Virus record (IMG/VR): IMGVR_UViG_3300018015_000341
Length of the DNA stretch: 10,646 bases
Origin: a virus
Reading direction: 5' to 3' (one strand)
A program made the position numbers and the translations under genes. Of the stretch, positions 1-10,646 are shown one piece after another. The notes beneath the pieces are model-generated. The model was not told the DNA's origin and ran no database searches. It saw only the letters and a program-made list of their open reading frames with translations. Each line of letters starts with the position of its first letter. The stretch's first letter is position 1.

Positions 1-2010
1 CAGGCTTGTTGCAATAGTATCGTCTGTAATTCTAACACTAAGCACTTCCACATCGTAGATATGCATTCCGTTCTCTTTGAACAAATGTCCAGGTCTTTCA
101 GTTGTCCCATTGGAAATACCTAGTACGGTGTCCCTTATTATATCGGTTGAGCTGTCATAGAATTCTTCAATTCCCTTCTTCTTGATAGCATTGTTGATAA
201 CTGACCTCAAATGCTGAGTTAGCAATTTAACATAATTCTCGACATCGAACCACTTTTCAGGATCGCCAACAAAGTTGACAAGGTACGATAGTCGTATCTC
301 AACCTTGACAAGATCTCTGGTTTCCACAGTAGTTATGTCTGACACTTTGTTGTTTGTTACTCTCAGATATGCAGTCTTAATTAATCTATCGTCACTCTTA
401 GGTTTGCCAGTTGACAACTCCATTATACCAAGAGACTCGTCATACTCAAGAAGTACAGTTTTCGGACCAACGACCACACGGCGGTTTCCTCCCTTGCCTA
501 TTATTAATATTGCATATCCTGTCCAGATGTCAATACTTACCGCCCCAGAATATTTGGTATCGAGAGTTATCATTCTGGGAGGAGTGAACGTTGTTTTTCT
601 GTCTATAGCGTCCCCTGCAAATTTTTCTTGAGAAATTCCCAATCCAAATGTTGTAATATTGTAACCTGGGATGGTACTTCCTGATAAAGATCTGGCATTT
701 CTCATTGCATCGTGTTCTGTAACAAATTCATCGGCTCTCTTGCTACGTGTGACTGACATCATCATTTTGTTATATTCCAATGCCTCATCATTTCCTGGGA
801 ACCATATCGAAGCAATCTTAGGATCTAAGACTCTTCTTACAATTACTTCCTTTCTTGGATCAGGTAGTAGCATTGTCGGCCCTCTCTTCAGTACTATTTC
901 TCCGCTTATACGATTTAATACATAGCGCGCCTCGCCAGCAGGAATCGCTACTGAATGATGTTTCTCCTGGCCATCATATTTAATAATAGCATGCTCAGGT
1001 CTCGGGTAATAAATCATACGATCCTTACCAGTTATAAATAATTCTTCTCCAACTTTATGGTCTTTTTCATCTTCATCTTTGTAATCCGCTATGATCTTGA
1101 TATATAACCCAGATATCTCGTTCAGTTCTATAGCACGAAATTTTTTGGAGTTGTTCTCTGTAATAAATGTTTCAGTTGGCTTAGGGAATACCACTGCAGG
1201 ACCTCTTACATATCTTTTGTTCCCATCTTCATCGAGGAGAATACAATATTCAAGCCTCTATAGAGTTACCGCTTTTCGCACAAAGCTATCGTTGAGGTTT
1301 TTGATATCATCTCTTTCTGGCAATACTTCAATACCAGTTGGGGGAATATAGAAAGATACTTCCGTACCCTTTATTGTTAACTGTTTTCCTGTGGTAAGAT
1401 CTGGTTTAGGTATCTCTTTTTCTTTTATACTTTTATTCTCTTTGTCTTCTTCTGACGTATTTATATCTTTATTTTCAACCTTGATTTCTATATCTTCCTT
1501 ATTAATAGTAACATTTGAAGGTTTGATAACCGCTTCATTCCAATTTTTTGTTGCTTCTTCTTCATTGTAAACGCGAACAAGCAAATATTCGTTGGATTTT
1601 AGATCATGCCCTGGAATAACTTTTGCAATCTGTCCTGCCCAGAGAGGAAATGTGATTGGTCCTCTTATATTAACTTTACGGCCATAGTCAAGTTCTTCCA
1701 TTCCGCTAGATCCTTGTTTAGGATGTTTGTCTTCTCTTGCAGGATTTTCCAGTACTAAATACGAACCATCTTTTGCAACTGGGAATTGTTTAATGGCAAC
1801 CTGAATATCGCATTCTACAAATTCTCTTTTTTCGTCATCATATCTTACAGGCTGATCAGTACCAGCCAATGATGTCTTAAATGGCCCTACGCAAACACCG
1901 ATAATCCCTTTTGTCTTGTCCAATACAAAGGCGAATTGGTTCTGAGCTATAATAAGATCTCTATCTCTCGCCAATCCGCTTCTTAATCTATCTCTTTCAA
2001 ATTCATCCAT
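1..2010 (-). CDS. Major vault protein (MVP)-like protein. The N-terminal part is the 250-aa ORF 1258..2010. The same reading frame continues without further stops through 1..1257 and leaves the window, so the protein is more than 669 aa. The two parts are separated only by a single in-frame TAG at 1258..1260. The gene is either interrupted (pseudogene or sequencing error) or translated by read-through or suppression.
   Basis: I hand-translated the minus strand of 1..1257 in the frame of the 250-aa ORF and found no other stop. The sequence reads ...FVRKAVTL*RLEYCILLDEDGNKRYVRGPAVVFPKPTETFITE.... There are several ~55-aa repeats of the vault pattern (G-x-x-W/L-x-V/I-x-G-P-x-x-Y/F-x-P-x-x-E-V), for example GKQLTIKGTEVSFYIPPTGIEVLPE, EYCILLDEDGNKRYVRGPAVVFPKP and GEIVLKEGPTMLLPDPRKEVIV. 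These match the repeat domains of eukaryotic MVP (compare [38 protein letters not shown]). A SPFH/band-7-like 'shoulder' segment follows (SDITTVETRDLVKVEIRLSYLVNFVGDPEKWFDV...LRSVINNAIKK). The TAG aligns with a position inside a conserved repeat, so a sense codon is expected there. The start has a Shine-Dalgarno: caGGAGAaatacaacATG (ATG = revcomp of 2008..2010). It is not in the ORF track because the C-terminal part has no stop inside the window. Confidence 0.7.
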
Positions 2011-2091
2011 GTTGTATTTCTCCTGAACAATTATTTCATTATTAACTATTATTTACTCCTATTCGTCATATTTCTCCTGACCGATGACTTC

Positions 2092-2883
2092 TTATTCGCC
2101 TGTATCCCCATTGGCAACCTTTTCTCTAGTTCTATTTAGGGATATATCGTAGTAATCCTCTAGTTCTTGATTCGTGCCTCTCAACCCTTCCATGACCTTT
2201 TCTGTCCAGTCTAGATACTCAATAAATCTTTCTTTTGTCCAATCTGGACTAGAGTTTATATTGCTAATTTTGTCAGCAATTTTTATGAGCTTTGCACCAA
2301 CTGACCTACTGGGAGCATCTTCGATTTGTAACCGTTTTCTTTCTGCTTTTGGCAAACTCTTATCATCAGTAACTTCCATAACGAGATCTAATACTTCCTG
2401 ACCAAAGAGTGAAAAAATTTCCTCAGGTTTGGTGTCAGTATCTTCAATAATATCATGTAATATTTCAGCAACCAGTACTGGAATATATCTGACTTTTCCA
2501 ATTATCCAAAGTATACTCAAAGCTTCTAACGGATGGTTTATATATGGCAACTTATCCTTATCCTTTCTTCTCTGGTTGCGATGTTTGATGGCAGAAAATT
2601 CTACAGCCCTGATTATCTTGTCTAGATCATCATCGCTAAACGTTGTTACAATAGTTTTGTGTGTCATGCACGATTCTTGTTCTCTTCCAAGATTCTTGAA
2701 AACTTTGACTTCATCATTTCTCACAAAAATATGATTTTCTGTTATCTTGAACTCTTCTCCACACTCTGGACATTCTTCTATATTTCCTAAATCTTCATAT
2801 GCTTGTCTTAATCCGTCGTATACCTTGATTGTCTGTCCTTCACATTCCCATGACAAGCATATTAGCTCGAACTTATGACTCAT
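2092..2883 (-). CDS. MESH1/HDDC3-type small alarmone hydrolase ((p)ppGpp 3'-pyrophosphohydrolase of the RelA/SpoT HD-domain family). It carries an N-terminal ~80-aa Cys4 zinc-ribbon extension.
   Basis: The HD hydrolase motifs are near-identical to metazoan MESH1 and bacterial SAH: AIKHRNQRRKDKDKLPYINHPLEALSIL (His-Asp metal site), ILHDIIEDTDTKPEEIFSLFGQEVLDLVMEVTDDKSLPKAERKRLQIEDAPSRSVGAKLIKIADKISNI (ED/DTD motif plus the KLADRLhN-like helix). N-terminus: C-x3-C (CLSWEC) ... C-x2-C (CPEC). Stop is TAA (2092..2094). A GGAAG-like Shine-Dalgarno lies upstream of the ATG at 2881..2883. Confidence 0.88.
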   Translation of the reverse strand: MSHKFELICLSWECEGQTIKVYDGLRQAYEDLGNIEECPECGEEFKITENHIFVRNDEVKVFKNLGREQESCMTHKTIVTTFSDDDLDKIIRAVEFSAIKHRNQRRKDKDKLPYINHPLEALSILWIIGKVRYIPVLVAEILHDIIEDTDTKPEEIFSLFGQEVLDLVMEVTDDKSLPKAERKRLQIEDAPSRSVGAKLIKIADKISNINSSPDWTKERFIEYLDWTEKVMEGLRGTNQELEDYYDISLNRTREKVANGDTGE

Positions 2884-2928
2884 TTTGTATATCTTCCTAT
2901 CTTTTCAAGTTTTATTTTGACATCGTTT

Positions 2929-3702
2929 TTATCCTGAAATGGCTACTATTTCAATTTCTGGATCTGTCTGTTGTGTGTTTTGAGACAATTCCAGGGGGGT
3001 TTGGTTTTGTACAGCCATCTGATCACTTCTCTCTCCGGTAACTGTTTCAACTGTTTTTTCGATGGATTTAGCTGTTTCTTCATGTTCTTCTGCAGGTTTT
3101 GCCTTTTGTAAACCTTGCTCTTGATCTGCCTTTTGTAAACCTTGATCTTGTTCTGCCTTTTGTAAACATTGCTCTTGCTCTGCCCTTTGTTTGCACATAC
3201 GCAGATATTTTTCAGTGAATTCCATGCCTCTTAGTTCGTACCCTTTGAATATCCCTTTGTTTATTGTTGGATAATCTTTGCACTTTAGACATATGAACTT
3301 TATCGCAGGTCTTGGAGTACTGTTCTTATTATTGTCAGCAATTCTATCTATCTTTGTGACAACACTATATGTTTTGCATTTGTCACAAGGTAAAAGATGT
3401 CCTCTTCTATATTTCGTATGCTTTCCGTCTACCATACATTTGTTCTTGTGCTTCAGCGTACAACCGACAATAATGTCATGTCTGGAACAACTATCGCAAT
3501 CGTTTTTTATATCGTCATTTCTTAGATAATGTTCATTTTTTGGAAAATTTTCGTTTGGTAATAATTTCTTTTTTTCGTCTGTTACTATTTGGTCTATTAA
3601 AGACATTATAGCCTTTTCGAACGTTTCCACTCTACTTTTTTCGCCGTGACCAAACTCTATACATATATTATGCAATATTTCGGAATAAGACTTTTTTTCC
3701 AT
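2929..3702 (-). CDS. Hypothetical Cys-rich protein (257 aa). It has multiple C-x2-C zinc-ribbon-like pairs, then three in-frame 9-aa Q/E-rich repeats, then an acidic tail. Function unknown.
   Basis: Complete ORF with a strong Shine-Dalgarno: aaAAGGAGAGtaaaaaATG (ATG = revcomp 3700..3702). Stop is TAA. Cys pairs: CDSCS...GC...C, PCDKC, ICLKC. The repeat LQKAEQ(E/D)QG is encoded by 27-bp DNA repeats. Confidence 0.6.
   Translation of the reverse strand: MEKKSYSEILHNICIEFGHGEKSRVETFEKAIMSLIDQIVTDEKKKLLPNENFPKNEHYLRNDDIKNDCDSCSRHDIIVGCTLKHKNKCMVDGKHTKYRRGHLLPCDKCKTYSVVTKIDRIADNNKNSTPRPAIKFICLKCKDYPTINKGIFKGYELRGMEFTEKYLRMCKQRAEQEQCLQKAEQDQGLQKADQEQGLQKAKPAEEHEETAKSIEKTVETVTGERSDQMAVQNQTPLELSQNTQQTDPEIEIVAISG
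3101..3190. repeat. In-frame 27-bp tandem repeat, 3 full copies (3101-3127, 3128-3154, 3155-3181) plus a partial fourth, inside the 257-aa CDS.
   Basis: gccttttgtaaaccttgctcttgatct / gccttttgtaaaccttgatcttgttct / gccttttgtaaacattgctcttgctct, with 3-4 mismatches between copies. 27 bp is 9 codons, giving the peptide repeat ...QKAEQEQCLQKAEQDQGLQKADQEQGLQKA.... Confidence 0.85.
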
Positions 3703-3714
3703 TTTTTACTCTCC

Positions 3715-3740
3715 TTTTTTGTTATTCTTTTTTGTTATTC
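3715..3740. promoter_or_regulatory. Perfect 13-bp tandem direct repeat (ttttttgttattc x2; minus-strand GAATAACAAAAAA x2). It sits immediately upstream of the Shine-Dalgarno of the 257-aa gene and is a candidate operator or promoter element.
   Basis: Copies at 3715-3727 and 3728-3740. They share the core AATAACAAA with the repeat pair upstream of the ATPase gene (6477-6518). Confidence 0.4.
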
Positions 3741-3776
3741 TTTTCTGCAGATCAGTTTCGTATAAGTTCCATTATT

Positions 3777-3935
3777 CTATGTTTTTGTATAAACTCTTTT
3801 TGTAGGACGTCTGCTCCTTATACCAATTCTCATTGTCTTCGAATACTCATTTTTTGAGTTACGTCTTCTTCTCGCACCGATCCATTTTGTCTTATGACAT
3901 TCGTTTTTTGAGTTGCGTCTTCTTCTTGCATACAT
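3777..3935 (-). CDS. Candidate small ORF encoding a 52-aa, extremely Arg/Lys-rich peptide with an internal duplication: MYARRRRNSKNECHKTKWIGARRRRNSKNEYSKTMRIGIRSRRPTKRVYTKT.
   Basis: The ATG (revcomp 3933..3935) is preceded by ttAGGTGcggacaATG. The Shine-Dalgarno overlaps the TAG stop of the upstream ATPase gene, an arrangement typical of translational coupling. The frame stays open for 53 codons in AT-rich DNA. The ARRRRNSKNE duplication is encoded by two ~29-bp direct repeats (about 3849-3877 and 3903-3931). It is below the 60-aa cutoff of the ORF track. It could instead be non-coding repeat DNA. Confidence 0.3.
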   Translation of the reverse strand: MYARRRRNSKNECHKTKWIGARRRRNSKNEYSKTMRIGIRSRRPTKRVYTKT

Positions 3936-3944
3936 TGTCCGCAC

Positions 3945-6437
3945 CTAACTAAATAATATATTTTCAAATGCTTTTAAATATGGCATACCATTTATGTCTT
4001 CTGCAAACAATGGCATATATATCCTATTGATATCTGGATACATTTTATCAACCATATTTATGTATCTATTTTGGTGATTTCTTCTTGCTTTACAAAATGC
4101 ACAGTCAAGGTTTGACTGAATGTTATTTATCACCATGTTATTGACTTTTACTCCAGCACTATATAGACTTATGACCAGTCTTTTAGTTTCTTCTATTGCC
4201 ATTAAATCAGGAATAGTTACTATCAAGAATTCTGTTTTGTCTTTATCTGTAATCAGCGTGTGTGCCCTATATATGCTTGCACCCAAATTTTTTATAAATG
4301 TATCTATGTCACCAGTTCTTGCTCCCATCAGTTTCATTATACCTTTATATCTATTATGTAATCCTGAAAAGAACATCAGCCAACTATTTACAACATTTGG
4401 CGCTCCCAATAGTCTTAAAGTATGCCCAGTAGGGGCTGTATCAACACATATAGTTCTATATGAGTTGTTATCTATAAACTCTGATAATTTTACCAGGGAC
4501 ATAAATTCGTCTATTCCTGGTATTGTCAGGTCCATTGCATGATCTGCCTCTTTTTCATTTAAGTTGGCTGTCTTTGTAAGCAACTCTCTGATTGCTCCTT
4601 GATTTGCACCCTTGAATTCTCCCATAAGTTGGTCAGCGTCTATCTCAATTGCGTCCAGCGTGTTTGTTATTCTAGTTGGAGTATCTCCAATTTTTATATT
4701 GAACGAGTCACTTATAGAGTGAGCAGGATCTGTTGAAAACAACAATATCTTTCCTCTCTGTCCTGTTTGGACCAATCTTTCTGATAGATGTAAAGCTATC
4801 GTAGATGAAGTCGTAGTATTATGATTAATAATCGAATTCCCTATATATGAGTGGACATCGTCTATTGCCACATCGTACACTCTGATATTTTCATCCTTGA
4901 TCTCTGTTACATTGTCAGTTATGAACTGATCTGCTATCGTTTCCAAATATTCATACTCAGGCAAATACGATACAGGCTTCATTACTGAAAGTATGTGTCT
5001 TAGGGCATATACTGATGGCTGTCCTTTTGTTATATACCAATATATTAATTGTTGGTCATTTTTTAGATATGTTCTGCAACTGACGGATTTCTTCCTGTTC
5101 AATTTGAACATTTTTTCTCCTATAACAAAATCCTCTTGCCATTCTTGCACTATCTTTCCATTTTGACCTAGTATCTTTAATTCCTCATATAACTTATTTA
5201 AAATTTTTCCGATGTTACGATATGTAACATCTGACCATCTGTCTCTGTTTTCTAATATCTTGACACACTCGTTTAGAATTTCTTTTTTTCTTGAAAGACC
5301 GAAGTTTATTATTTCCGAGAATTTAAGTACTTCTCCTCCTAATATAATTAGTCTATAACTTTCTTCGTACTCTCTGATCTCTTCTCTATACTCAAGTTTT
5401 TTGGTACCTTTTTTGCTGGATAACCTTCCAACTATCCCAAAGTTTAATAGCATTATTTGTAATTGTCTACATAGCTCATACGATGAACTATTATATTCTA
5501 CATACTGGTGACTATCGTCACCATTTCCTACTGTTCCGTCACCATCGAATAATGCTCTTATAAAAGATATTTGGGAATCTCTGTCCGCTTGGAGGATGGA
5601 CCATGGGACCTCTTTGTTTTGCGCCAATTTTCTATATCCCAGATAGTACACAAACTCCTTAAAAGCCACAGAGTTTATGTCAACACCGACAAGTTTTTTA
5701 TCAACATATTTTTCACAAGCGTCTATATTGATTGATTTACATGTGGCTAATGATCTATCGATCATCTCTTTATCGTGGCTAGTTATAATAACACTGGTTG
5801 AATCGTCATTTGCTTCTGCAATTATATATCCCAACAATTCTGCTATATCAGGATTCATATAGCTTACATTTTTCAGCGTTTGATTTTCGCAGTTACTTTC
5901 CTTTTTTCTTTTATGGAAGAAGTTCAACTTCAATCTTTCATTAAAAACATTCATATTATATGATATGATTACTTGATCCGACGTAGAAATGTCTTGTAAT
6001 TTTTTAAATCTTAGTTTCCCATTTCCATCTATTATTATTATCCTATGCTCAGGCGTTCCTGATATTTCCAACCCAAGTCTTGTCTTTATGCTTATAACAT
6101 CGCTTTCTCCCATATCATATCTATCTATTATTTTATATTTGCTATAACTCAACTTTGGAGAAATCGATATTATATTATCGACATTCTTTATGTTATCGTC
6201 TTCTTCTTTTAGCATTTCATTAATGTCATCATCGTTTCTATCGTAGATACTGTCATATAGATTTGTCTGTCCACGATCTATATTTCTATTACTGAAATCT
6301 ATTTTCTTGTGAACAATGTCTTCAATCTTTATTATACCTCTATCGGTCAATATTAGAGTATTCCCACGCACACATTTACCAACCCCTCCCTTCCCTCCGA
6401 CAAATACCAATCTTTTATTTTCTAATGTTAATACCAT
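3945..6437 (-). CDS. Get3/ArsA-family (SIMIBI-class) ATPase precursor of 830 aa. The mature extein is about 311 aa. It is a single ArsA-type domain with a CXXC motif, like archaeal and eukaryotic Get3/TRC40. It is interrupted by a 519-aa intein inserted in the P-loop.
   Basis: N-extein: MVLTLENKRLVFVGGKGGVGK (deviant Walker A GKGGVGK). C-extein resumes with TTTSSTIALHLSERLVQTGQRGKILLFSTDPAHSISDSF (ArsA/Get3 STDPAHSLSD motif). It also has ...ICVDTAPTGHTLRLLGAP (the DTAPTGHT signature) and ...NLDCAFCKARRNH (CXXC). The Shine-Dalgarno is ctAGGAGActgaaattaaatATG. Stop is TAG (3945..3947). Confidence 0.88.
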   Translation of the reverse strand: MVLTLENKRLVFVGGKGGVGKCVRGNTLILTDRGIIKIEDIVHKKIDFSNRNIDRGQTNLYDSIYDRNDDDINEMLKEEDDNIKNVDNIISISPKLSYSKYKIIDRYDMGESDVISIKTRLGLEISGTPEHRIIIIDGNGKLRFKKLQDISTSDQVIISYNMNVFNERLKLNFFHKRKKESNCENQTLKNVSYMNPDIAELLGYIIAEANDDSTSVIITSHDKEMIDRSLATCKSINIDACEKYVDKKLVGVDINSVAFKEFVYYLGYRKLAQNKEVPWSILQADRDSQISFIRALFDGDGTVGNGDDSHQYVEYNSSSYELCRQLQIMLLNFGIVGRLSSKKGTKKLEYREEIREYEESYRLIILGGEVLKFSEIINFGLSRKKEILNECVKILENRDRWSDVTYRNIGKILNKLYEELKILGQNGKIVQEWQEDFVIGEKMFKLNRKKSVSCRTYLKNDQQLIYWYITKGQPSVYALRHILSVMKPVSYLPEYEYLETIADQFITDNVTEIKDENIRVYDVAIDDVHSYIGNSIINHNTTTSSTIALHLSERLVQTGQRGKILLFSTDPAHSISDSFNIKIGDTPTRITNTLDAIEIDADQLMGEFKGANQGAIRELLTKTANLNEKEADHAMDLTIPGIDEFMSLVKLSEFIDNNSYRTICVDTAPTGHTLRLLGAPNVVNSWLMFFSGLHNRYKGIMKLMGARTGDIDTFIKNLGASIYRAHTLITDKDKTEFLIVTIPDLMAIEETKRLVISLYSAGVKVNNMVINNIQSNLDCAFCKARRNHQNRYINMVDKMYPDINRIYMPLFAEDINGMPYLKAFENILFS
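4818..6374 (-). mobile_element. Intein (519 aa, residues C22-N540 of the precursor) carrying a LAGLIDADG-family homing-endonuclease domain. It is inserted between GKGGVGK and TTT of the ATPase P-loop.
   Basis: It has the canonical splicing blocks. Block A is Cys1 (CVRGNTLILTDRGIIKIEDI), with the Cys codon at 6372..6374. Block B is TxxH (GTPEHRI). Blocks F/G are VYDVAIDDVHSYIGNSIINHN, ending in HN with +1 Thr at 4815..4817. Two LAGLIDADG motifs are present: ELLGYIIAEAN (about 5808..5837) and FIRALFDGDGTV (about 5529..5564). Removing it restores a contiguous Walker A motif, GKGGVGKTTT. Confidence 0.85.
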
Positions 6438-6540: not shown

Positions 6541-6888
6541 TTATGGATCTTTTGCAATTTCTATATCTTGACAGTCGTCCCCACTGGTCAATATGTCTTG
6601 TGGCAGCTTCGCCAGTCTCTCTACAGATTTCATGAATTCCTTATGAAATTCTGTAGAAGTTTTTAACATTCTGCATAATATAAGACTGAGCAACAAAAAT
6701 CTGGATTCGTGTGGGATATCCCTCTTTTCTATCTCTTCTACAAGTATATTTTTGCACACATTTGAGATATCAGATATCTCCTCTGTAGATATTCCGGCAG
6801 TATTGAGAATCTTCATCGCGGCGTATATGCTAACACCGATCTCTTTTGCAAACGCTTGCTCTATAATCATAGACTCTTTTTTTATCAT
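6541..6888 (-). CDS. Hypothetical protein of 115 aa. It is translationally coupled to the upstream PRAI-like gene. Function unknown; it may have a helix-turn-helix-like N-terminus.
   Basis: ATG at 6886..6888 lies 4 nt after the TGA of the upstream gene (gaaGGAaaaTGAtacaATG). Stop is TAA. It has no diagnostic motifs. Confidence 0.5.
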   Translation of the reverse strand: MIKKESMIIEQAFAKEIGVSIYAAMKILNTAGISTEEISDISNVCKNILVEEIEKRDIPHESRFLLLSLILCRMLKTSTEFHKEFMKSVERLAKLPQDILTSGDDCQDIEIAKDP

Positions 6889-6892
6889 TGTA

Positions 6893-7705
6893 TCATTTTC
6901 CTTCTATGAATAGTCTCAAAGAATCGTCACTTTCCGTTTCACAACTTTTCACTTCTTGTTTGAATCCTTTTATAGTTTTCGCAGCTCGTACATAAGACCT
7001 TATCTTTTCGTGGTCGAGCGTGTCATCATTGTTCATCAACTTTCCTTCCGCATCTACACCTGCACAGAAGTCTTCTACCAGAGATATGAACTTGTATAGA
7101 CTAGTTCCGTCTAGCCCTCCGGCAAACGTTAAAGTCTTTAGATTTTTCAAAGGTTTGGCAAACTCAAATGTATCTAATATTTTTAGCTCTACTCCTGCAC
7201 CCTGAGATGCGTCTATTAATATATAATCTATATATGGGATATATGGAGCCATCTTTAATGATACCTTTTTGTGTGCATTTCCCTTCATTGAGTTTTTCCC
7301 TAGTTGAAATATTATTTTTAGATCGTTATTTTCATTTTTTATTTTTATCACCTGGTCAAGTGGAGGATACTCAATGTTCAATTGTATACAATTACAAAGA
7401 CAATCTGTAAGTTGGACAATTTCCTTGACGTCTTTGCTGAGATAGTCAGCATGTTCCGAGTTGTAATGTACTGCTCTAAGAGCATTTTCTGGCATTACCC
7501 TAAATATATCTTTAAGAGAACTGATGCTTGGATATCTGCCTCTGTGAGGTTTTCCATTTTTCAAGGTGTTGCGAGATACCAACACCCCATACATTCCATA
7601 TGAGTCTCCGAGAGCTTTTTTTATGACTTCTACATCATCTGTACATGTTATTCCCGTAATTCCTATGTAAGGTTTGTTATTTTCATTTACCATGTTCACC
7701 TTCAA
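6893..7705 (-). CDS. Phosphoribosylanthranilate isomerase (TrpF/PRAI)-fold TIM-barrel protein. The true start is probably the ATG at 7691..7693 (MVNENN...), not the TTG at 7705.
   Basis: It matches TrpF along its whole length. N-terminal: YIGITGITCTDDVEVIKKALGDSYGMYGVL (compare KICGIT..eDa..a...GADaiGfvF). Middle: CIQLNIEYPP (compare vQLhGeE). C-terminal: YILIDASQGAGVELKILDTFEF...LTFAGGLDGTSLYKFISLVEDFCAGVDAEGKLMNNDDTLDHEKIRSYVRAAK (compare ILLDt..gGsGktfDW.l.....llLaGGLnpeNV..ai....p.gVDvSSGVE..pG.KD..ki..Fi). At 270 aa it is longer than canonical TrpF (about 200 aa). Shine-Dalgarno is GAAGGTGaacATG. Stop is TGA. Confidence 0.7.
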   Translation of the reverse strand: MKVNMVNENNKPYIGITGITCTDDVEVIKKALGDSYGMYGVLVSRNTLKNGKPHRGRYPSISSLKDIFRVMPENALRAVHYNSEHADYLSKDVKEIVQLTDCLCNCIQLNIEYPPLDQVIKIKNENNDLKIIFQLGKNSMKGNAHKKVSLKMAPYIPYIDYILIDASQGAGVELKILDTFEFAKPLKNLKTLTFAGGLDGTSLYKFISLVEDFCAGVDAEGKLMNNDDTLDHEKIRSYVRAAKTIKGFKQEVKSCETESDDSLRLFIEGK

Positions 7706-7907: not shown

Positions 7908-8264
7908 CTATTCCTCGCCTTCCAAGGTCCATTTAAATAAAAAGTCGAAATATTTCCAAGCTTGACACAACGAGCACTCTTCGCAGTAGTCAAGGCATCT
8001 TTCTCCCCAATTTTTTATCATCCACTCTTTCATTCTGTCATATGTATACCCACTACAAGTTTCACACTCCCAATATTCATCATTGTCTGACCCAAGAGAT
8101 TTTCCAAGATTTCTTGAAAAAAAGAACTGAATTGGGACAGTACCCCCTTTTCCTAATTTTACATCGAATTTTTCTCCACAGACTGTACATACTCTATCTT
8201 TAAGAATGTTTCCCTCGTGATGTTCTACTCCTTCGATTTTTCTATTTACCATATTATTCTCCAT
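7908..8264 (-). CDS. Hypothetical Cys-rich zinc-binding protein (118 aa; C-x2-C, C-x2-C, C-x3-C-x2-C-x2-C). The likely true start is the second ATG at 8250..8252 (MVNRK...), because that one has a Shine-Dalgarno: atGGAGaataatATG.
   Basis: Complete ORF with TAG stop (7908..7910). Cys pairs: CTVCGEKF, WECETCSGY, CLDYCEECSLCQAW. A -10-like TTATTATAG lies just upstream. Confidence 0.5.
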   Translation of the reverse strand: MENNMVNRKIEGVEHHEGNILKDRVCTVCGEKFDVKLGKGGTVPIQFFFSRNLGKSLGSDNDEYWECETCSGYTYDRMKEWMIKNWGERCLDYCEECSLCQAWKYFDFLFKWTLEGEE

Positions 8265-8512: not shown

Positions 8513-8827
8513 CTATCTGACAACCAGGCTTTCCCTCAGAAACTCTACTATTATGTCTGTTACTCTATTGTCCATGACAATATCTGGATCAGCAACAACT
8601 TCTTTAAATTTTTCTATTACACACTTTTTACCATCATCAGATGAGAGATATACATCGATAATATCAGTAACTCTCCTGTGTATGAGATCTTTCAACCTTT
8701 CATCATCTAGCGCACTGTCGATTATATCTTCTACATATATATAATCTTCTATTTTTGACTCTATTCTTTCCTCGATCAATTTTTTTATATCCATTTTTTT
8801 GACAATGCTGTCTATATCTATGTCCAT
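8513..8827 (-). CDS. Hypothetical small acidic protein (104 aa, about 27% Asp+Glu, net charge about -11). It has an internal duplication (RVTDIIDVYL / RVTDIIVEFL).
   Basis: Complete ORF. Shine-Dalgarno is tGGAGAcactaaaatATG. Stop is TAG. Composition and duplication were read from the translation. Confidence 0.5.
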   Translation of the reverse strand: MDIDIDSIVKKMDIKKLIEERIESKIEDYIYVEDIIDSALDDERLKDLIHRRVTDIIDVYLSSDDGKKCVIEKFKEVVADPDIVMDNRVTDIIVEFLRESLVVR

Positions 8828-8893: not shown

Positions 8894-9406
8894 CTACTCA
8901 TCACAAATTATTAACACTTTTTTGTGCTCGTCGTATGGATAATCTTCTATTTTGAATTTTCCCATTTTTAGCAAGTTAAAGATTTTATCGTGATCCTTTA
9001 TGGCCTCTTCCTTAGTCTCATATCTATGAACAATATCGCATTTAAGCCATTCCACTTCTTCATCTCCAAACCCTCCAGCAAAGACCATTGTCTCGAACCA
9101 TACATCTTTCCCCTCTCCATATCCATGATTGAGTTCTAAGAATGCTGTACTTACCAAAATAGTGACATATCCTCTGTCAGTCTTTATGTCTATAGTATCA
9201 TGTATTCTCAACGTATCCAAGAAAAACCTATATCCACAGTCACAAACAGGTCCGTGTTCATTTTGTTGATCTGTGTCACTTTCTACCATTTTGGCAGCAG
9301 TCAATCTTAGAAAGTCTTCAAGTGTGTATTCCTTTCCGCAGTTTCCACATTTCCATTTTGGTAGACATCTCGTTTTTTCCAAATTATGCTCATTCGTCAT
9401 TTTCAC
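8894..9406 (-). CDS. Hypothetical protein of 170 aa with an N-terminal zinc ribbon (C-x5-C-x2-C ... C-x-C). The true start is probably the ATG at 9398..9400 (MTNEHN...) rather than the GTG at 9406.
   Basis: ORF with TAG stop. Cys motifs: CLPKWKCGNCGKEY...CDCGY. Only 15 nt separate it from the upstream gene, which suggests one operon. Confidence 0.5.
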   Translation of the reverse strand: MKMTNEHNLEKTRCLPKWKCGNCGKEYTLEDFLRLTAAKMVESDTDQQNEHGPVCDCGYRFFLDTLRIHDTIDIKTDRGYVTILVSTAFLELNHGYGEGKDVWFETMVFAGGFGDEEVEWLKCDIVHRYETKEEAIKDHDKIFNLLKMGKFKIEDYPYDEHKKVLIICDE

Positions 9407-9421
9407 TCTCTATCTCAGTTA

Positions 9422-10024
9422 TCAATCCTTTCTAGAAAACTCTCCATATTCTGTTTCTAGATCTGTTACAAACTTTTCCAAATCTTTTCTTGTAACTATC
9501 AGGTGTAGAGAAATTCCCTCTCCTGAGTATACATCACATTCACTAAAACTATATTTGTCAATAAATGTTATAATCGTAAACAGTTCATATTTGCTTGTGT
9601 TCTGCGCATCATCTTCTGGATGTTCTTCAGACTTTGTTTGGTGTTCGTCTGCTTGTATTATCTCCTCTCCAGTTTCTTCAACTGGAACCCAATTATCCTT
9701 TAGGAATGGGAAATATCTTTCATGGTATATGGCAATTTTGGCGTCTGGTTCTATTGGTTCCCAATATTCAGACCCGTTAGTAACCAAACTCTTTTTCAAT
9801 GTTTCTATCAAATAGTCTTTTCTATAATCATCTGCCAAAAATGTGCCATATTTTCTTCTATCCCACCATCTATTCTTTTTAAGAACCTCATCATTTATAA
9901 TTGGGTCGTTTTTCCATAGGAATCTGATTTCATATGCAACCCAGTCTTCTTCGAACCTATCGAATTTAATCTCAAGGGTCAGATTGTCCGATTGTAATTT
10001 TGCCATAGTTGTGTGCCTGTCCAA
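9422..10024 (-). CDS. Hypothetical protein of 200 aa, Trp/Glu/Asp-rich, with no recognisable motifs. The start is uncertain (TTG at 10024 or ATG at 10004..10006).
   Basis: Long open minus-strand frame with TGA stop (9422..9424). Upstream there is a TATATA element (gtgaaagTATATAcaactc), usable as a bacterial -10 or an archaeal TATA box. Confidence 0.5.
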   Translation of the reverse strand: MDRHTTMAKLQSDNLTLEIKFDRFEEDWVAYEIRFLWKNDPIINDEVLKKNRWWDRRKYGTFLADDYRKDYLIETLKKSLVTNGSEYWEPIEPDAKIAIYHERYFPFLKDNWVPVEETGEEIIQADEHQTKSEEHPEDDAQNTSKYELFTIITFIDKYSFSECDVYSGEGISLHLIVTRKDLEKFVTDLETEYGEFSRKD

Positions 10025-10121: not shown

Positions 10122-10535
10122 TTAAAATTTTAACCTTGTTATCAATTCGGTAACTGTCATATTTGGTCCAGTTGATTTTTCTATAGAGTTCTCGTCAGTT
10201 TCGAACAGATCATAATGTTCACCAATTTCTACACTTAGTAAGCTAATTTTTTGATATGCTCCTATAATTTCTTCTTTTTTCCATACACCTTGAGAATCGT
10301 AATACTTGTCACCAATTCTCAACATCACATGATGTACCACTTTCTTGTCTAAATCTCCAACAACTGCTACAAGTTTGCCAATGTTAAATATTTCCTTTAA
10401 CAAGATCGCGAATATTCCACAATTGGTAGTTGTCAATTGTAACTCGTCTTTATTTTTTATACTATCTATAAACTCACGAATCTTATCTTGTTCCATACTA
10501 TACATTTTTCTTACCATCCTTATATTTCGATACAA
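10122..10535 (-). CDS. Hypothetical protein of 137 aa as called. The start is uncertain: a TTG is called at 10535, and in-frame ATGs at codons 7, 11 and 14 have AAGGA/GGATGG Shine-Dalgarno-like sequences.
   Basis: Open frame with TAA stop (10122..10124). No motif recognised. It lies immediately downstream of the 17-bp tandem array. Confidence 0.45.
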   Translation of the reverse strand: MYRNIRMVRKMYSMEQDKIREFIDSIKNKDELQLTTTNCGIFAILLKEIFNIGKLVAVVGDLDKKVVHHVMLRIGDKYYDSQGVWKKEEIIGAYQKISLLSVEIGEHYDLFETDENSIEKSTGPNMTVTELITRLKF

Positions 10536-10543
10536 AATTTTTC

Positions 10544-10646
10544 ATATTTCTTCATTCTTGATATTTCTTCATTCTTGATATTTCTTCATTCTTGATATTT
10601 CTTCATTCTTGATATTTCTTCATTCTTGATATTTCTTCATTCTTGA
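10544..10646. repeat. Perfect 17-bp tandem repeat (atatttcttcattcttg), six complete copies from 10544 to 10645. The array continues past the window edge, so the copy number is at least 6. It is iteron-like.
   Basis: The copies are identical: 10544-10560, 10561-10577, 10578-10594, 10595-10611, 10612-10628, 10629-10645. A unit length of 17 is not a multiple of 3, and every frame hits TGA on the minus strand, so it is non-coding. Confidence 0.95.

What the first reader, a model, noticed from the sequence alone, without database searches (positions are those of the whole stretch)
1..6437. Co-directional cluster of three eukaryote/archaea-flavoured proteins (MVP, MESH1-type hydrolase, CXXC-Get3) with bacterial-style translation signals
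Three adjacent genes encode proteins whose closest textbook relatives are eukaryotic or archaeal. The HD hydrolase is almost motif-for-motif human MESH1/HDDC3. The ATPase has the Get3/TRC40 CXXC zinc motif. MVP is the vault protein. All three use AGGAG Shine-Dalgarno sequences in about 30% GC DNA. This combination suggests either an archaeal lineage rich in eukaryotic signature proteins (Asgard-like), an AT-rich archaeon, or a virus or mobile island that has captured these genes. None of the three is an expected neighbour of the others.
Basis: inference. Interest (0 to 1): 0.55.

Follow-up and report, generated by a model that had tools for sequence, protein, structure and literature searches.

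The report
Borg-type archaeal element fragment with vault gene
The three "eukaryote-like" genes are real, but they sit on a fragment of a Borg-family giant extrachromosomal element of peat archaea, a known kind of element already reported to carry vault-protein genes, so this is a new example with some new details and not a new kind of system.

Summary
The genes exist and all lie on the minus strand: MVP (1-2010), a MESH1-like HD hydrolase (2092-2883) and a CXXC Get3/ArsA ATPase (3945-6437) split by a 519-aa intein.

Four corrections to the observation:
- A conserved 257-aa zinc-finger gene lies between HD and Get3.
- GC is 35%, not 30%.
- MVP is cut by the contig end and carries an in-frame TAG that is GAG in six near-identical assemblies.
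- HD has AGGAAG, not AGGAG.

The window is a whole JGI contig, 99.9% identical to part of a 40-kb contig. That contig continues MVP -> archaeal histone -> ERI1-like exonuclease, the order published for Borgs. Other Borg traits are present: about 35% GC, every gene on one strand in all relatives, perfect tandem repeats, mostly orphan genes, and no close relatives in GTDB genomes. A related MVP (76% identical) occurs in SRR7028199, the peat run in which Borgs were reported. A related Get3 lies beside rpL11, TerC/TerD and an exonuclease/NAD-kinase/DUF356 backbone.

Outside this clade, MVP (about 50%) and HD (about 60%) are closest to bacterial proteins. Get3 drops to 40% or less.

Verdict: new member of a known kind. 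The new details are the zinc-ribbon-MESH1 fusion, the Get3 intein and a Get3-p257-MVP micro-synteny.

The parts
1..2010 (-). Major vault protein (MVP) homologue. It covers codons 1-669 of an 876-aa protein, and the 3' end is lost at the contig end.
   Evidence: Pfam MVP_shoulder E=3.8e-27, Vault_3 E=2.3e-10 and Band_7. The full-length gene is on L001:10874-13504. A profile search of the PDB hits only MVP chains, E=4e-24. The top 12 Foldseek hits are all MVP. dN/dS is 0.12 against the sister element.
1258..1260 (-). In-frame TAG inside MVP (codon 251).
   Evidence: Sequence read directly. The codon is GAG in L001, L002, L003, L004, L007 and L008. JGI called a 250-aa product on this 10,646-bp contig (P0126).
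2092..2883 (-). 263-aa MESH1-type HD hydrolase with an N-terminal 4-Cys zinc ribbon. The ribbon is aa 1-57 (nt 2713-2883), a disordered linker is aa 58-80, and the HD domain is aa 84-257 (nt 2113-2634).
   Evidence: Pfam HD_4. Matches 3nr1 at E=1.4e-43. The AF2 model has pLDDT 84.5. Foldseek gives TM 0.91 and rmsd 1.4 A to human MESH1. H117, H143, D144, E147, D148 and D204 align with MESH1 H35, H61, D62, E65, D66 and D122, and the CLSWxC...CPEC extension occurs only in the roughly 12-member clade.
2929..3702 (-). p257: an orphan protein with eight conserved Cys (a putative double zinc finger) and a repeat-generated, variable C-terminal tail. It lies between Get3 and MVP in four lineages.
   Evidence: No Pfam, NCBIfam, PHROG or PADLOC hit. 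It is 85% identical in L011 and 43-46% in L045/L046, at the same position. dN/dS is 0.15. Only 2 cluster representatives reach E<1e-30 among 1.84 billion.
3100..3190 (.). In-frame 27-nt tandem repeat (3.4 copies, 90% matches) that encodes the QKAEQDQGL-type repeats of p257.
   Evidence: TRF result. The sister element differs by exactly one unit, a 9-aa indel.
3714..3744 (.). Perfect 13-nt intergenic tandem repeat (2.4 copies) just upstream of the p257 ribosome-binding site.
3945..6437 (-). Get3/TRC40/ArsA-family ATPase precursor of 830 aa. The extein is 311 aa.
   Evidence: ArsA_ATPase E=1e-65. TIGR00345 at 214 bits against a cut-off of 135. PDB Get3/ARSA1 chains match at E=1e-44 to 2e-64, and the CxxC and the TRC40-insert region align. 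dN/dS is 0.10.
4818..6374 (-). 519-aa intein with a LAGLIDADG homing-endonuclease domain, inserted in the P-loop (GGKGGVGK|C...HN|TTT).
   Evidence: Intein_splicing, LAGLIDADG_3, TIGR01445 and TIGR01443. The intein-free allele GGKGGVGKTT in L011 has 92% extein identity. An intein at the same site in L039 is 74% identical.
6541..6888 (-). p115: an orphan gene conserved immediately upstream of Get3.
   Evidence: 72% identical in L011 and 52% in L046. dN/dS is 0.23.
6893..7693 (-). p266: an orphan gene.
   Evidence: 90% identical in L011 and 67% in L045. dN/dS is 0.19. No family hit.
7908..8252 (-). p114: a Cys-rich orphan gene.
   Evidence: 99% identical in L011. dN/dS is 0.02.
8513..8827 (-). 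p104: an acidic orphan gene. Its homologues occupy the slot directly upstream of MVP in L045 and L046.
8894..9400 (-). p168: an orphan gene.
   Evidence: Homologues at 40-47% identity lie next to the exonuclease in L043, L038 and L039.
9422..10006 (-). p194: an orphan gene.
   Evidence: 60% identical to a gene on L043, the contig that bears rpL11 and TerD.
10122..10505 (-). p127: a weak YunG-like protein.
   Evidence: Precomputed Pfam hit PF24591, marked weak. The identical protein occurs in Logan run SRR7028477.
10544..10646 (.). Perfect 17-nt intergenic tandem repeat, 6.1 copies, cut by the contig end.
   Evidence: TRF reports 100% matches. Contigs that span the repeat have 7 copies.

Best explanation
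The window is a complete 10.6-kb metagenome contig from a Borg-family (Borg or mini-Borg) extrachromosomal element of peat archaea. It is one stretch of that element's single-strand gene array: p266 - p115 - Get3 (with intein) - p257 - HD - MVP. Just beyond the window follow an archaeal histone and an ERI1/3'hExo-like exonuclease.

Shown by tools:
- The identity of each protein family.
- The precise intein insertion site.
- Purifying selection on every gene.
- The synteny with related contigs.
- The composition, strand and tandem-repeat traits.

Inferred functions:
- Each gene is translated from its own SD-led start.
- The Get3 precursor self-splices to restore the GKGGVGKTT P-loop. It then acts as a zinc-clamped dimeric ATPase that shields hydrophobic segments, either targeting tail-anchored proteins or acting as a holdase. 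Relatives sit beside HSP20 genes.
- The HD enzyme is a Mn-dependent 3'-(pyro)phosphohydrolase of MESH1 specificity, acting on ppGpp, NADPH or CoA-type substrates. Its clade-specific zinc ribbon probably tethers or regulates it.
- MVP assembles into a vault-like shell, as proposed for Borg MVPs.

The co-location mainly reflects the conserved Borg gene backbone plus lineage-specific insertion of HD. It is not a dedicated three-gene operon. MVP and HD were probably acquired from bacteria, whereas Get3 forms its own deep clade within these elements.
For: 1. On the 99.9%-identical 40-kb contig, MVP is followed by a 97-aa histone and a 181-aa RNase_T exonuclease. The histone matches HMfA/B and 1KU5 at E about 1e-20, and the exonuclease matches ERI1 1w0h/1zbh at E about 1e-18. 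This is the order, and these are the PDB matches, described for Borgs in PMC12660748 and its preprint.

2. Borg traits as listed in PMC9605863 and 10.64898/2026.05.22.727314:
- GC is 0.31-0.355 in the window and eight related loci.
- Every called gene is on one strand in L001, L007, L011, L017, L038, L039, L041, L043, L045 and L046.
- Perfect tandem repeats occur at 0.4-2.5 per 10 kb against none in shuffles. They are intergenic or in frame, their copy number varies, and one breaks the assembly.
- Most genes have no Pfam hit.

3. An MVP of the same clade (76% identical) is on a contig from SRR7028199. That is the peat run in which Maroon, Mauve and Liserian Borgs were found (PMC11208441 section 31). 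p127 of the window occurs in SRR7028477.

4. A Get3 of the same clade (73% identical) lies on L043 together with:
- rpL11, TerD and TerC;
- type III CRISPR genes and a cytochrome-like protein;
- the exonuclease, and homologues of window p194 and p168.
L045 carries a multihaem cytochrome.

5. The Borg 'blue' core cluster (Cap18-like exonuclease, endonuclease III, NAD kinase) matches RNase_T ... HhH-GPD ... NAD kinase-DUF356 in L011, L017, L039, L041 and L045. L043 shows the same order without a called endonuclease III.

6. No close MVP relative is present in GTDB species genomes.

7. dN/dS is 0.02-0.23 for seven genes.

8. Get3 - p257-like - small ORF - MVP is retained in L011, L045 and L046. 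HD is present only in the window and L011 sublineage.
Against: - No curated Borg genome was available, so there is no direct alignment to a named Borg. The assignment rests on matching published descriptions, shared samples and shared gene families.
- The 24 kb seen of the window's own contig carries none of the classical markers (rpL11, TROVE, DNA polymerase B, inverted terminal repeats).
- Borg and mini-Borg cannot be separated from a fragment.
- The host is unknown. The Borg authors saw no clear Methanoperedens in the peat sample.
- The biochemical roles are inferred from homology only.
- The AF2 model of the MVP N-terminal repeat region is poor (pLDDT below 50).
Confidence: 0.8

Rival explanations
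1. The four genes Get3 - p257 - HD - MVP form a dedicated functional module. In it a vault-like shell is built or loaded with help from a Get3 chaperone and a zinc-finger partner, and a MESH1-type enzyme controls a nucleotide cofactor. This would parallel the NAD-using PARP4/TEP1 accessories of eukaryotic vaults.
For: - Get3 - p257-like - small ORF - MVP is retained in four lineages despite 43-79% protein divergence.
- In L039, Get3 lies 3 kb from MVP.
- The genes are tightly spaced and co-directional.
- A conserved NAD kinase lies nearby in relatives.
- MESH1 is an NADPH phosphatase (10.1101/325266).
Against: - HD is confined to one sublineage of about 12 sequences. Elsewhere its slot is taken by an unrelated 105-aa ORF.
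- L017 and L038 have MVP without Get3 within 10 kb. L041 and L043 have Get3 without MVP.
- None of the 19 bacterial MVP loci has any of these neighbours.
- Borg genomes are broadly syntenic anyway (PMC11208441), so conserved order is weak evidence of function.
Confidence: 0.12
2. The contig is part of the chromosome of an uncultivated AT-rich archaeon, either DPANN-like or an Asgard-like lineage rich in eukaryotic signature proteins.
For: - Archaeal-type genes occur nearby: a histone, Thg1, DUF356, DUF5788 and a thermosome in L038.
- Asgard MVP homologues have been reported (PMC12962969).
Against: - No close MVP relative exists in any GTDB species genome.
- About 200 kb of related loci hold no ribosomal-protein operons, aminoacyl-tRNA synthetases or RNA polymerase genes. 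There is only a lone rpL11.
- More than 20 consecutive genes lie on one strand in every locus.
- Perfect tandem repeats are pervasive.
- The nearest MVP relatives outside the clade are bacterial, not Asgard or eukaryotic.
Confidence: 0.05
3. The contig is a fragment of a conventional virus, either a huge phage or a tailed archaeal virus, that captured cellular genes.
For: - Full-length MVP homologues at 45% identity occur in 462-735-kb uncultured phage genomes.
- Thg1 and NUDIX match PHROG families.
- An intein with a homing endonuclease is common in viruses (general knowledge).
Against: - No capsid, portal, terminase or tail PHROG hit among the 20 proteins scanned from the window's contig.
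- The phage MVPs are more distant (45%) than the bacterial ones (50%).
- The histone-exonuclease-EndoIII-NAD kinase backbone matches Borgs.
- Borgs themselves are argued to be virus-like, so this rival partly overlaps the main explanation.
Confidence: 0.03

Closest known systems
Borg vault - histone - 3'hExo-like exonuclease (subfam0908) cluster, e.g. Ruby Borg (Nat Commun 2025, PMC12660748)
   Same: The gene order is the same: MVP -> histone -> DEDDh exonuclease that has only the nuclease domain. The PDB matches are the same (1KU5 and 1zbh). The element also shares low GC, one-strand coding and perfect tandem repeats.
   Different: No direct sequence comparison with Ruby or any named Borg was possible. 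The published description does not mention the upstream Get3 (with intein), p257 or the MESH1-like HD gene; text and supplement searches found no ArsA, MESH1 or relevant Get3 mention.
Human/Drosophila MESH1 (HDDC3; PDB 3nr1, 5vxa, 3nqw)
   Same: 46-51% identity, TM 0.91 and rmsd 1.4 A. All metal-binding and catalytic residues are conserved.
   Different: It carries an extra N-terminal 4-Cys zinc ribbon plus a linker (about 83 aa) found only in this roughly 12-member clade. It also has a 5-residue loop deletion. Its closest relatives are 184-aa bacterial proteins at about 60% identity. The substrate is untested.
Get3/TRC40 of archaea and eukaryotes (PDB 3ug6, 3zq6, 2woj, 7spz; PMC6593721)
   Same: A single ATPase domain, the GKGGVGKT P-loop, DTAPTGHT switch II, the CxxC dimer-zinc motif and a TRC40-insert-length segment that contains Met residues.
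   Different: It is interrupted by a P-loop intein. It shares 40% identity or less with any named cellular homologue and forms its own clade of about 57 sequences. No Get1/2-type receptor is known. Some relatives neighbour HSP20 or ParB_N genes.
Eukaryotic major vault protein (rat 4V60/4HL8) and bacterial MVP homologues
   Same: An MVP shoulder, a 128-residue cap helix and a Vault_3 repeat. The overall length (876 aa) is like that of rat MVP (861 aa).
   Different: Sequence similarity to rat MVP is limited to residues 479-815 (E=4e-24 with a profile). The protein is about 50% identical along its full length to bacterial MVP-like proteins. The number of repeats could not be resolved. Assembly is untested.

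Membership tests
Borg-family extrachromosomal elements (Borgs/mini-Borgs) | GC of about 30-35%, roughly 10% below the host | tested here: met
   GC is 0.350 in the window and 0.31-0.355 in related loci. Host GC is not available.
Borg-family extrachromosomal elements (Borgs/mini-Borgs) | [quoted passage not shown] | tested here: met
   All supported genes of the window are on the minus strand. All called genes are co-directional in ten related loci of 13-23 kb. GC skew is monotonic.
Borg-family extrachromosomal elements (Borgs/mini-Borgs) | Genome-wide perfect tandem direct repeats, either intergenic or in frame, that evolve fast | tested here: met
   The window has a 17-nt repeat (6-7 copies), a perfect 13-nt repeat (2.4 copies) and an in-frame 27-nt repeat (90% matches). 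Related loci have 0.4-2.5 perfect repeats per 10 kb against none in shuffles. Copy number differs between strains.
Borg-family extrachromosomal elements (Borgs/mini-Borgs) | Conserved marker genes and a syntenic backbone (e.g. exonuclease, endonuclease III, NAD kinase, rpL11, TROVE, PolB) | tested here: inconclusive
   The exonuclease, EndoIII and NAD kinase occur in the right order on related loci (EndoIII not called on L043), and rpL11 and Ter genes are on L043.
Borg-family extrachromosomal elements (Borgs/mini-Borgs) | Linear genome with long inverted terminal repeats, 49 kb to 1.1 Mb in size | not testable with these tools
   Only fragments were available. The largest contigs of the clade are 63-176 kb.
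Borg-family extrachromosomal elements (Borgs/mini-Borgs) | Association with Methanoperedens hosts | not tested
   No host data were obtained. The Borg authors found no clear Methanoperedens in the peat run SRR7028199.
Major vault protein | Shoulder (SPFH-like) domain followed by a long cap helix | tested here: met
   MVP_shoulder E=3.8e-27. The AF2 model has a confident shoulder at 555-663 and a helix at 664-791. Only MVP chains are hit in the PDB.
Major vault protein | N-terminal array of about nine MVP repeat domains | tested here: inconclusive
   One Vault_3 match, E=2.3e-10. The 550-aa N-terminal region has the right length, but the model has pLDDT below 50 there.
Major vault protein | Assembly into 39-mer half-vault shells | not testable with these tools
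   This needs expression and EM. Borg MVP multimer models are reported in PMC12660748.
MESH1 / small alarmone hydrolase (RelA-SpoT HD domain) | HD fold with His/Asp metal ligands and the ED catalytic pair | tested here: met
   H117, H143, D144, E147, D148 and D204 align with MESH1 H35, H61, D62, E65, D66 and D122. TM is 0.91 to 3nr1.
MESH1 / small alarmone hydrolase (RelA-SpoT HD domain) | Stand-alone protein of about 180 aa without a synthetase domain | tested here: not met
   There is no synthetase domain, but the protein carries an extra N-terminal zinc-ribbon domain (263 aa in total). This is a variant architecture.
MESH1 / small alarmone hydrolase (RelA-SpoT HD domain) | Hydrolysis of ppGpp, NADPH or CoA 3'-phosphate | not testable with these tools
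   An enzymatic assay is needed. The known activities of MESH1 are cited.
Get3/TRC40 | Deviant Walker A GKGGVGKT plus switch I/II of the ArsA/Get3 fold, in a single domain | tested here: met
   The P-loop is restored after in-silico splicing, and DPAH and DTAPTGHT are present. TIGR00345 scores 214 bits against a cut-off of 135.
Get3/TRC40 | CxxC zinc motif at the dimer interface | tested here: met
   CAFCKARRNHQNRYI aligns with the Giardia Get3 segment CSMCRSRARMQNKYI.
Get3/TRC40 | TRC40-insert / hydrophobic client groove | tested here: inconclusive
   The insert region aligns with 7spz with only a 4-residue gap and contains Met residues. No structure or client binding was tested.
Intein (HINT + LAGLIDADG) | N-terminal Cys, C-terminal HN followed by a nucleophile (Thr/Ser/Cys), and insertion in a conserved motif of the host protein | tested here: met
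   GVGK|C...HN|T is present, with Pfam and TIGR intein domains. An intein-free allele defines the junction exactly.

The most novel reading that the evidence does not exclude
Borg-family elements may encode a prokaryotic vault system with its own accessory set. That set would be a Get3-type chaperone ATPase, a clade-restricted zinc-finger partner (p257) and, in one peat lineage, a zinc-ribbon-tethered MESH1-type NADPH/ppGpp/CoA phosphatase. Together with the adjacent histone and ERI1-like exonuclease, these would build or load a vault-like shell. This would be a functional analogue of the NAD-linked accessories (PARP4, TEP1) of eukaryotic vaults, possibly used to package or protect the element.
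Probability: 0.1. Interest if true: 0.65.

Novelty: new member of a known kind. Interest (0 to 1): 0.35.

Why it matters
The result explains an odd-looking set of 'eukaryotic' genes without invoking a new lineage. The genes are cargo of a Borg-type element, a class already known to carry vault, histone and exonuclease genes.

What this window adds is modest but concrete:
- A Borg-clade Get3/ArsA family of about 57 members, sometimes carrying a mobile P-loop intein.
- A Get3 - zinc-finger - MVP micro-synteny.
- A MESH1-type hydrolase fused to a zinc ribbon.

All three are cheap to express and test, and they could help clarify what Borg vault proteins do. The searches also show that full-length MVP homologues are far more widespread in bacteria and in huge phages than the literature's 'a few bacteria' suggests. 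That bears on debates about the origin of vaults.

Tried and rejected
- **Pyrrolysine or stop-codon recoding as the cause of the in-frame TAG.** Rejected as the primary reading. Six near-identical assemblies have GAG at that codon, and TAG also ends four normal ORFs in the window. Read-through cannot be excluded.
- **DPANN or Asgard chromosome.** Rejected; see the rival explanations.
MVP and HD do have bacterial nearest neighbours, but there is no shared neighbourhood.
- **Anti-phage defence system.** No PADLOC hit except a generic DEDDh match for the exonuclease.
- **Viral hallmark genes.** No capsid, portal or terminase PHROG hit. One NUDIX protein hit a 'portal' PHROG through its NUDIX domain only.
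- **Vault RNA, Y RNA or another Rfam RNA near MVP.** Nothing but tRNAs in 135 kb of related loci. The first Rfam call failed on the size limit.
- **AF2 model of MVP.** The N-terminal 550 aa were not confidently folded, so the repeat count is unresolved.
- **Identifying the NCBI assemblies** (GCA_017973895.1, GCA_041643215.1, GCA_040960975.1) or the JGI sample ids in the literature. Only SRR7028199 was found.
- **NCBI taxonomy look-up for 'Borg'.** Uninformative.
- **Walking the 40-kb contig beyond position 23,980.** Not possible under the look-up rules.
Full report
**What is in the window.**
All supported genes lie on the minus strand. GC is 0.350 overall and 0.317-0.405 in 1-kb windows. GC skew is uniform, so there is no strand switch. 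Reading the minus strand from the high-coordinate end:
- a perfect 17-nt tandem repeat (10544-10646) at which the contig ends;
- p127 (10122-10505);
- the orphans p194, p168, p104, p114, p266 and p115;
- an 830-aa Get3/ArsA precursor (3945-6437);
- p257 (2929-3702);
- a 263-aa HD protein (2092-2883);
- an MVP homologue (2010 down to 1) that runs off the contig.

The window is an entire JGI contig. A 250-aa MVP fragment called on a contig of exactly 10,646 bp belongs to the same 90% cluster as the full-length protein (P0126).

**Check of the observation.**
- MVP: MVP_shoulder E=3.8e-27, Vault_3 E=2.3e-10.
- HD: HD_4 E=3.8e-11.
- ATPase: ArsA_ATPase E=1e-65, plus Intein_splicing and LAGLIDADG_3. 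TIGR00345 GET3_arsA_TRC40 scores 214 bits against a cut-off of 135.
- The HD domain matches human MESH1 (3nr1) at E=1.4e-43 with 50.6% identity over 156 residues. The AF2 model (pLDDT 84.5) superposes on 3nr1/5vxa with TM 0.91 and rmsd 1.4 A. Solved bacterial small alarmone hydrolases are only 22% identical.
- H117, H143, D144, E147, D148 and D204 align with MESH1 H35, H61, D62, E65, D66 and D122.
- In the spliced Get3, CAFCKARRNHQNRYI aligns with the Get3 CxxC segment, and the TRC40-insert region aligns with only a 4-residue gap.
- AGGAG precedes MVP, p257 and Get3. HD has AGGAAG. Across the element, GGAG/GAGG occurs at -20..-5 of 11/29 and 17/28 genes, against a 10% background.

Corrections to the observation:
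- A conserved gene, p257, separates HD from Get3.
- GC is 35%, not 30%.
- MVP lacks its last 207 codons.
- MVP has an in-frame TAG at 1258-1260.

**The TAG.**
Six other assemblies of the same population (L001-L004, L007, L008) read GAG (Glu) at that codon. The window differs from the 40-kb contig at only nine positions, seven of them clustered at 1480-1573 inside MVP. The TAG is therefore a single G-to-T variant. It is either a real nonsense allele or a consensus error. It is not a recoding signal.

**What the contig belongs to.**
- The window is 99.9% identical to ENA ERZ27250059 k141_135451 (40,147 bp). On that contig the full 876-aa MVP is followed by a 97-aa histone-fold protein, a 181-aa RNase_T-family exonuclease and small orphans.
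- The histone matches archaeal HMfA/HMfB and P. horikoshii 1KU5 at E=1e-19 to 1e-20. The exonuclease matches ERI1/3'hExo (1w0h, 1zbh) at E about 1e-18.
- The Borg literature describes exactly this. Putative major vault proteins are absent from Methanoperedens. [quoted passage not shown] All are met here:
  - Ten related loci of 13-23 kb are fully co-directional.
  - Their GC is 0.31-0.355.
  - Perfect repeats occur at 0.4-2.5 per 10 kb against none in shuffles.
  - The 17-nt repeat has 7 copies in contigs that span it, and it breaks this contig.
  - The 27-nt in-frame repeat in p257 differs by exactly one unit (9 aa) from the sister element.

**Links through samples and shared genes.**
- An MVP 76% identical to the window's is on a contig from Logan run SRR7028199. 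That is the Minnesota peat run in which Schoelmerich et al. detected the Maroon, Mauve and Liserian Borgs (PMC11208441 sections 15 and 31). The window's p127 is also found in SRR7028477.
- A Get3 73% identical to the window's lies on a 51.7-kb JGI contig (L043). That contig also carries:
  - rpL11, TerD/TerD/TerC and PspA;
  - type III CRISPR genes and a cytochrome-like protein;
  - the same exonuclease (72%);
  - homologues of window p194 (60%) and p168 (40%);
  - NAD kinase - DUF356 - MscS.
  rpL11 and tellurium-resistance genes are named Borg features.
- The Borg 'blue' core cluster of a Cap18-like 3'-5' exonuclease, endonuclease III and NAD kinase corresponds to RNase_T ... HhH-GPD ... NAD kinase-DUF356 in L011, L017, L039, L041 and L045. 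L043 has the exonuclease and NAD kinase-DUF356 but no called endonuclease III.
- A scan of one genome per GTDB species found no close MVP relative. The 19 hits are bacterial at 43-52%. This fits an element whose bins fail genome-quality filters.
- No capsid, portal or terminase PHROG and no PADLOC system was hit.

I could not align the contig to a named Borg genome, and Borg cannot be separated from mini-Borg on a fragment. I therefore put the Borg-family assignment at about 0.8-0.85.

**Where the three proteins come from.**
- **MVP.** A tight clade of about 58 sequences at 68-95% identity, on contigs up to 79 kb, is followed by a jump to about 50% identity over 95% of the length. Those more distant proteins come from Ozemobacteraceae, Eremiobacterota/Xenobiia, Riflebacteria, Chloroflexota, Desulfobacterota, Bacteroidota (including Saprospira grandis) and even a Paceibacterota MAG. 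Rat and human MVP match only over the shoulder and cap helix: E=5e-14 with the single sequence, 4e-24 with a profile. Huge uncultured phages of 462-735 kb encode 45%-identical full-length homologues.
- **HD.** About 12 sequences (66-81% identical) share the N-terminal CLSWxC...CPEC zinc ribbon. After them come thousands of 184-192-aa bacterial proteins at about 60% identity over the HD domain, from Nitrospirota, Acidobacteriota and Chloroflexota.
- **Get3.** About 57 intein-free relatives lie at 62-93% identity. There is then a drop to 40% or less, with hits in Bacteroidales, Nitrospirota and one Methanosarcinales partial sequence.

The 'eukaryotic flavour' is thus a textbook effect. Two of the three genes are nearest to bacterial genes, and the third is a deep clade specific to these elements.

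**The intein.**
Residues 22-540 (window 4818-6374) begin with Cys and end with His-Asn, followed by Thr. They split GGKGGVGK|TT. The sister element L011 carries the uninterrupted allele (GGKGGVGKTT, 92% extein identity). The more distant L039 has a 518-aa intein at the same site, with 74% intein identity against 69% extein identity. This presence/absence pattern fits a mobile homing intein. The ATPase can be active only after splicing, because the P-loop is otherwise disrupted.

**Is the cluster a functional unit?**
- All seven genes compared with L011 are under purifying selection, with dN/dS of 0.02-0.23.
- Get3 -> p257-like -> small ORF -> MVP is retained in L011, L045 (GCA_041643215.1) and L046 (GCA_040960975.1). 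In L046 two histones and the exonuclease lie upstream.
- p257 has eight conserved cysteines and a lineage-specific, repeat-made tail. Only two cluster representatives reach E<1e-30 among 1.84 billion.
- HD occurs only in the window and L011 sublineage. In L045 and L046 its slot holds a p104-like ORF.
- L017 and L038 have MVP without Get3 nearby. L041 and L043 have Get3 without MVP. In L039 and L041 Get3 sits beside HSP20, and in L041 it is followed by a ParB_N protein.
- None of the 19 bacterial MVP loci contains an HD, Get3, histone or exonuclease homologue.

I conclude that the arrangement mainly reflects the conserved Borg backbone plus lineage-specific insertion. A dedicated vault module remains possible, at about 0.1.

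**Mechanism (inferred).**
- MVP forms a vault-like shell. The shoulder and a 128-residue cap helix are confidently modelled, and the Borg authors report barrel-like multimer models.
- Get3, once spliced, is a zinc-bridged dimeric ATPase with a Get3-type client groove. It would act in tail-anchored-protein handling or as a holdase (PMC6593721).
- The HD enzyme is a Mn-dependent phosphohydrolase with a MESH1 active site. MESH1 hydrolyses ppGpp, NADPH and CoA 3'-phosphate. The nearby conserved NAD kinase makes an NADP(H)-directed role attractive, but this is speculation.

**Novelty.**
Borgs, their MVPs and the vault-histone-exonuclease neighbourhood are all published. I found no mention in the Borg papers and the one supplement I searched of three things:
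- the Borg-clade Get3 with a P-loop intein;
- the Get3-p257-MVP micro-synteny;
- the zinc-ribbon-MESH1 fusion.

This is therefore a new member of a known kind, and interest is moderate to low.

Noticed in passing
window 1258-1260 and 1480-1573: The window's MVP allele carries a nonsense TAG where six other assemblies have GAG. It also has seven clustered SNVs in the acidic insert of MVP, relative to the 40-kb contig. This could be a strain variant, a pseudogene allele or a consensus error.
   Followed up: partly
window 10544-10646: The contig ends inside a perfect 17-nt tandem repeat. Assemblies that span the repeat have 7 copies. This is a typical repeat-induced assembly break.
   Followed up: yes
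window 3100-3190 (p257) and L045/L046 homologues: The p257 family has a conserved 8-Cys N-terminal domain and completely different repeat-built C-terminal tails in each lineage. One 27-nt unit is gained or lost between sister elements.
   Followed up: yes
window 4818-6374; L011:3814-4797; L039:8564-11056: The Get3 P-loop intein shows presence/absence polymorphism. It is absent in the closest relative and in most of the roughly 57 clade members, but present at the same site in a 69%-identical homologue.
   Followed up: yes
L007:9048-9818 (183 bp beyond the window's high-coordinate end): A Thg1-family tRNA-His guanylyltransferase (PHROG 4717, E=6e-78) lies directly upstream of the 17-nt repeat. 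A NUDIX hydrolase, an HNH_repeat protein and a DUF5788 protein lie further upstream.
   Followed up: partly
L017:4821-4985: An Rfam tRNA match spans 165 nt and was not called by ARAGORN. It may be an intron-containing, archaeal-type tRNA on a related element.
   Followed up: no
phage records LR756500.1 (20940-23378), LR756501.1 and LR756503.1 (17209-19590): Huge uncultured phage genomes of 462-735 kb encode full-length MVP homologues 45% identical to the window's. MVP therefore recurs in very large mobile elements of both bacteria and archaea.
   Followed up: no
(L019-L037): Full-length MVP homologues are very widespread in bacteria. 6,672 proteins reached E<=0.001 among the 8,000 candidates scored, and 19 GTDB species from at least eight phyla, including a Paceibacterota MAG, carry one. 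The literature speaks of 'a few bacteria'.
   Followed up: partly
L041:10001-12265; L039:7475-11056: In related elements the Get3 gene sits directly after an HSP20 (alpha-crystallin) gene. In L041 it is followed by a 410-aa ParB_N-domain protein. This hints at a chaperone role or possibly a partition-like role.
   Followed up: no
alignment A2, P0134, P0140 and P0141: Some members of the zinc-ribbon-HD clade have Lys in place of the catalytic Glu (MESH1 E65), and one has Gly in place of the metal-binding Asp. They may be inactive variants. The window's copy is intact.
   Followed up: no
L011:180-1655; L039:836-2500; L045:14387-15724: TnpB/Cas12f-like genes are inserted at different places near the MVP region in different lineages. 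In L011 one replaces the window's p104-p127 segment.
   Followed up: no
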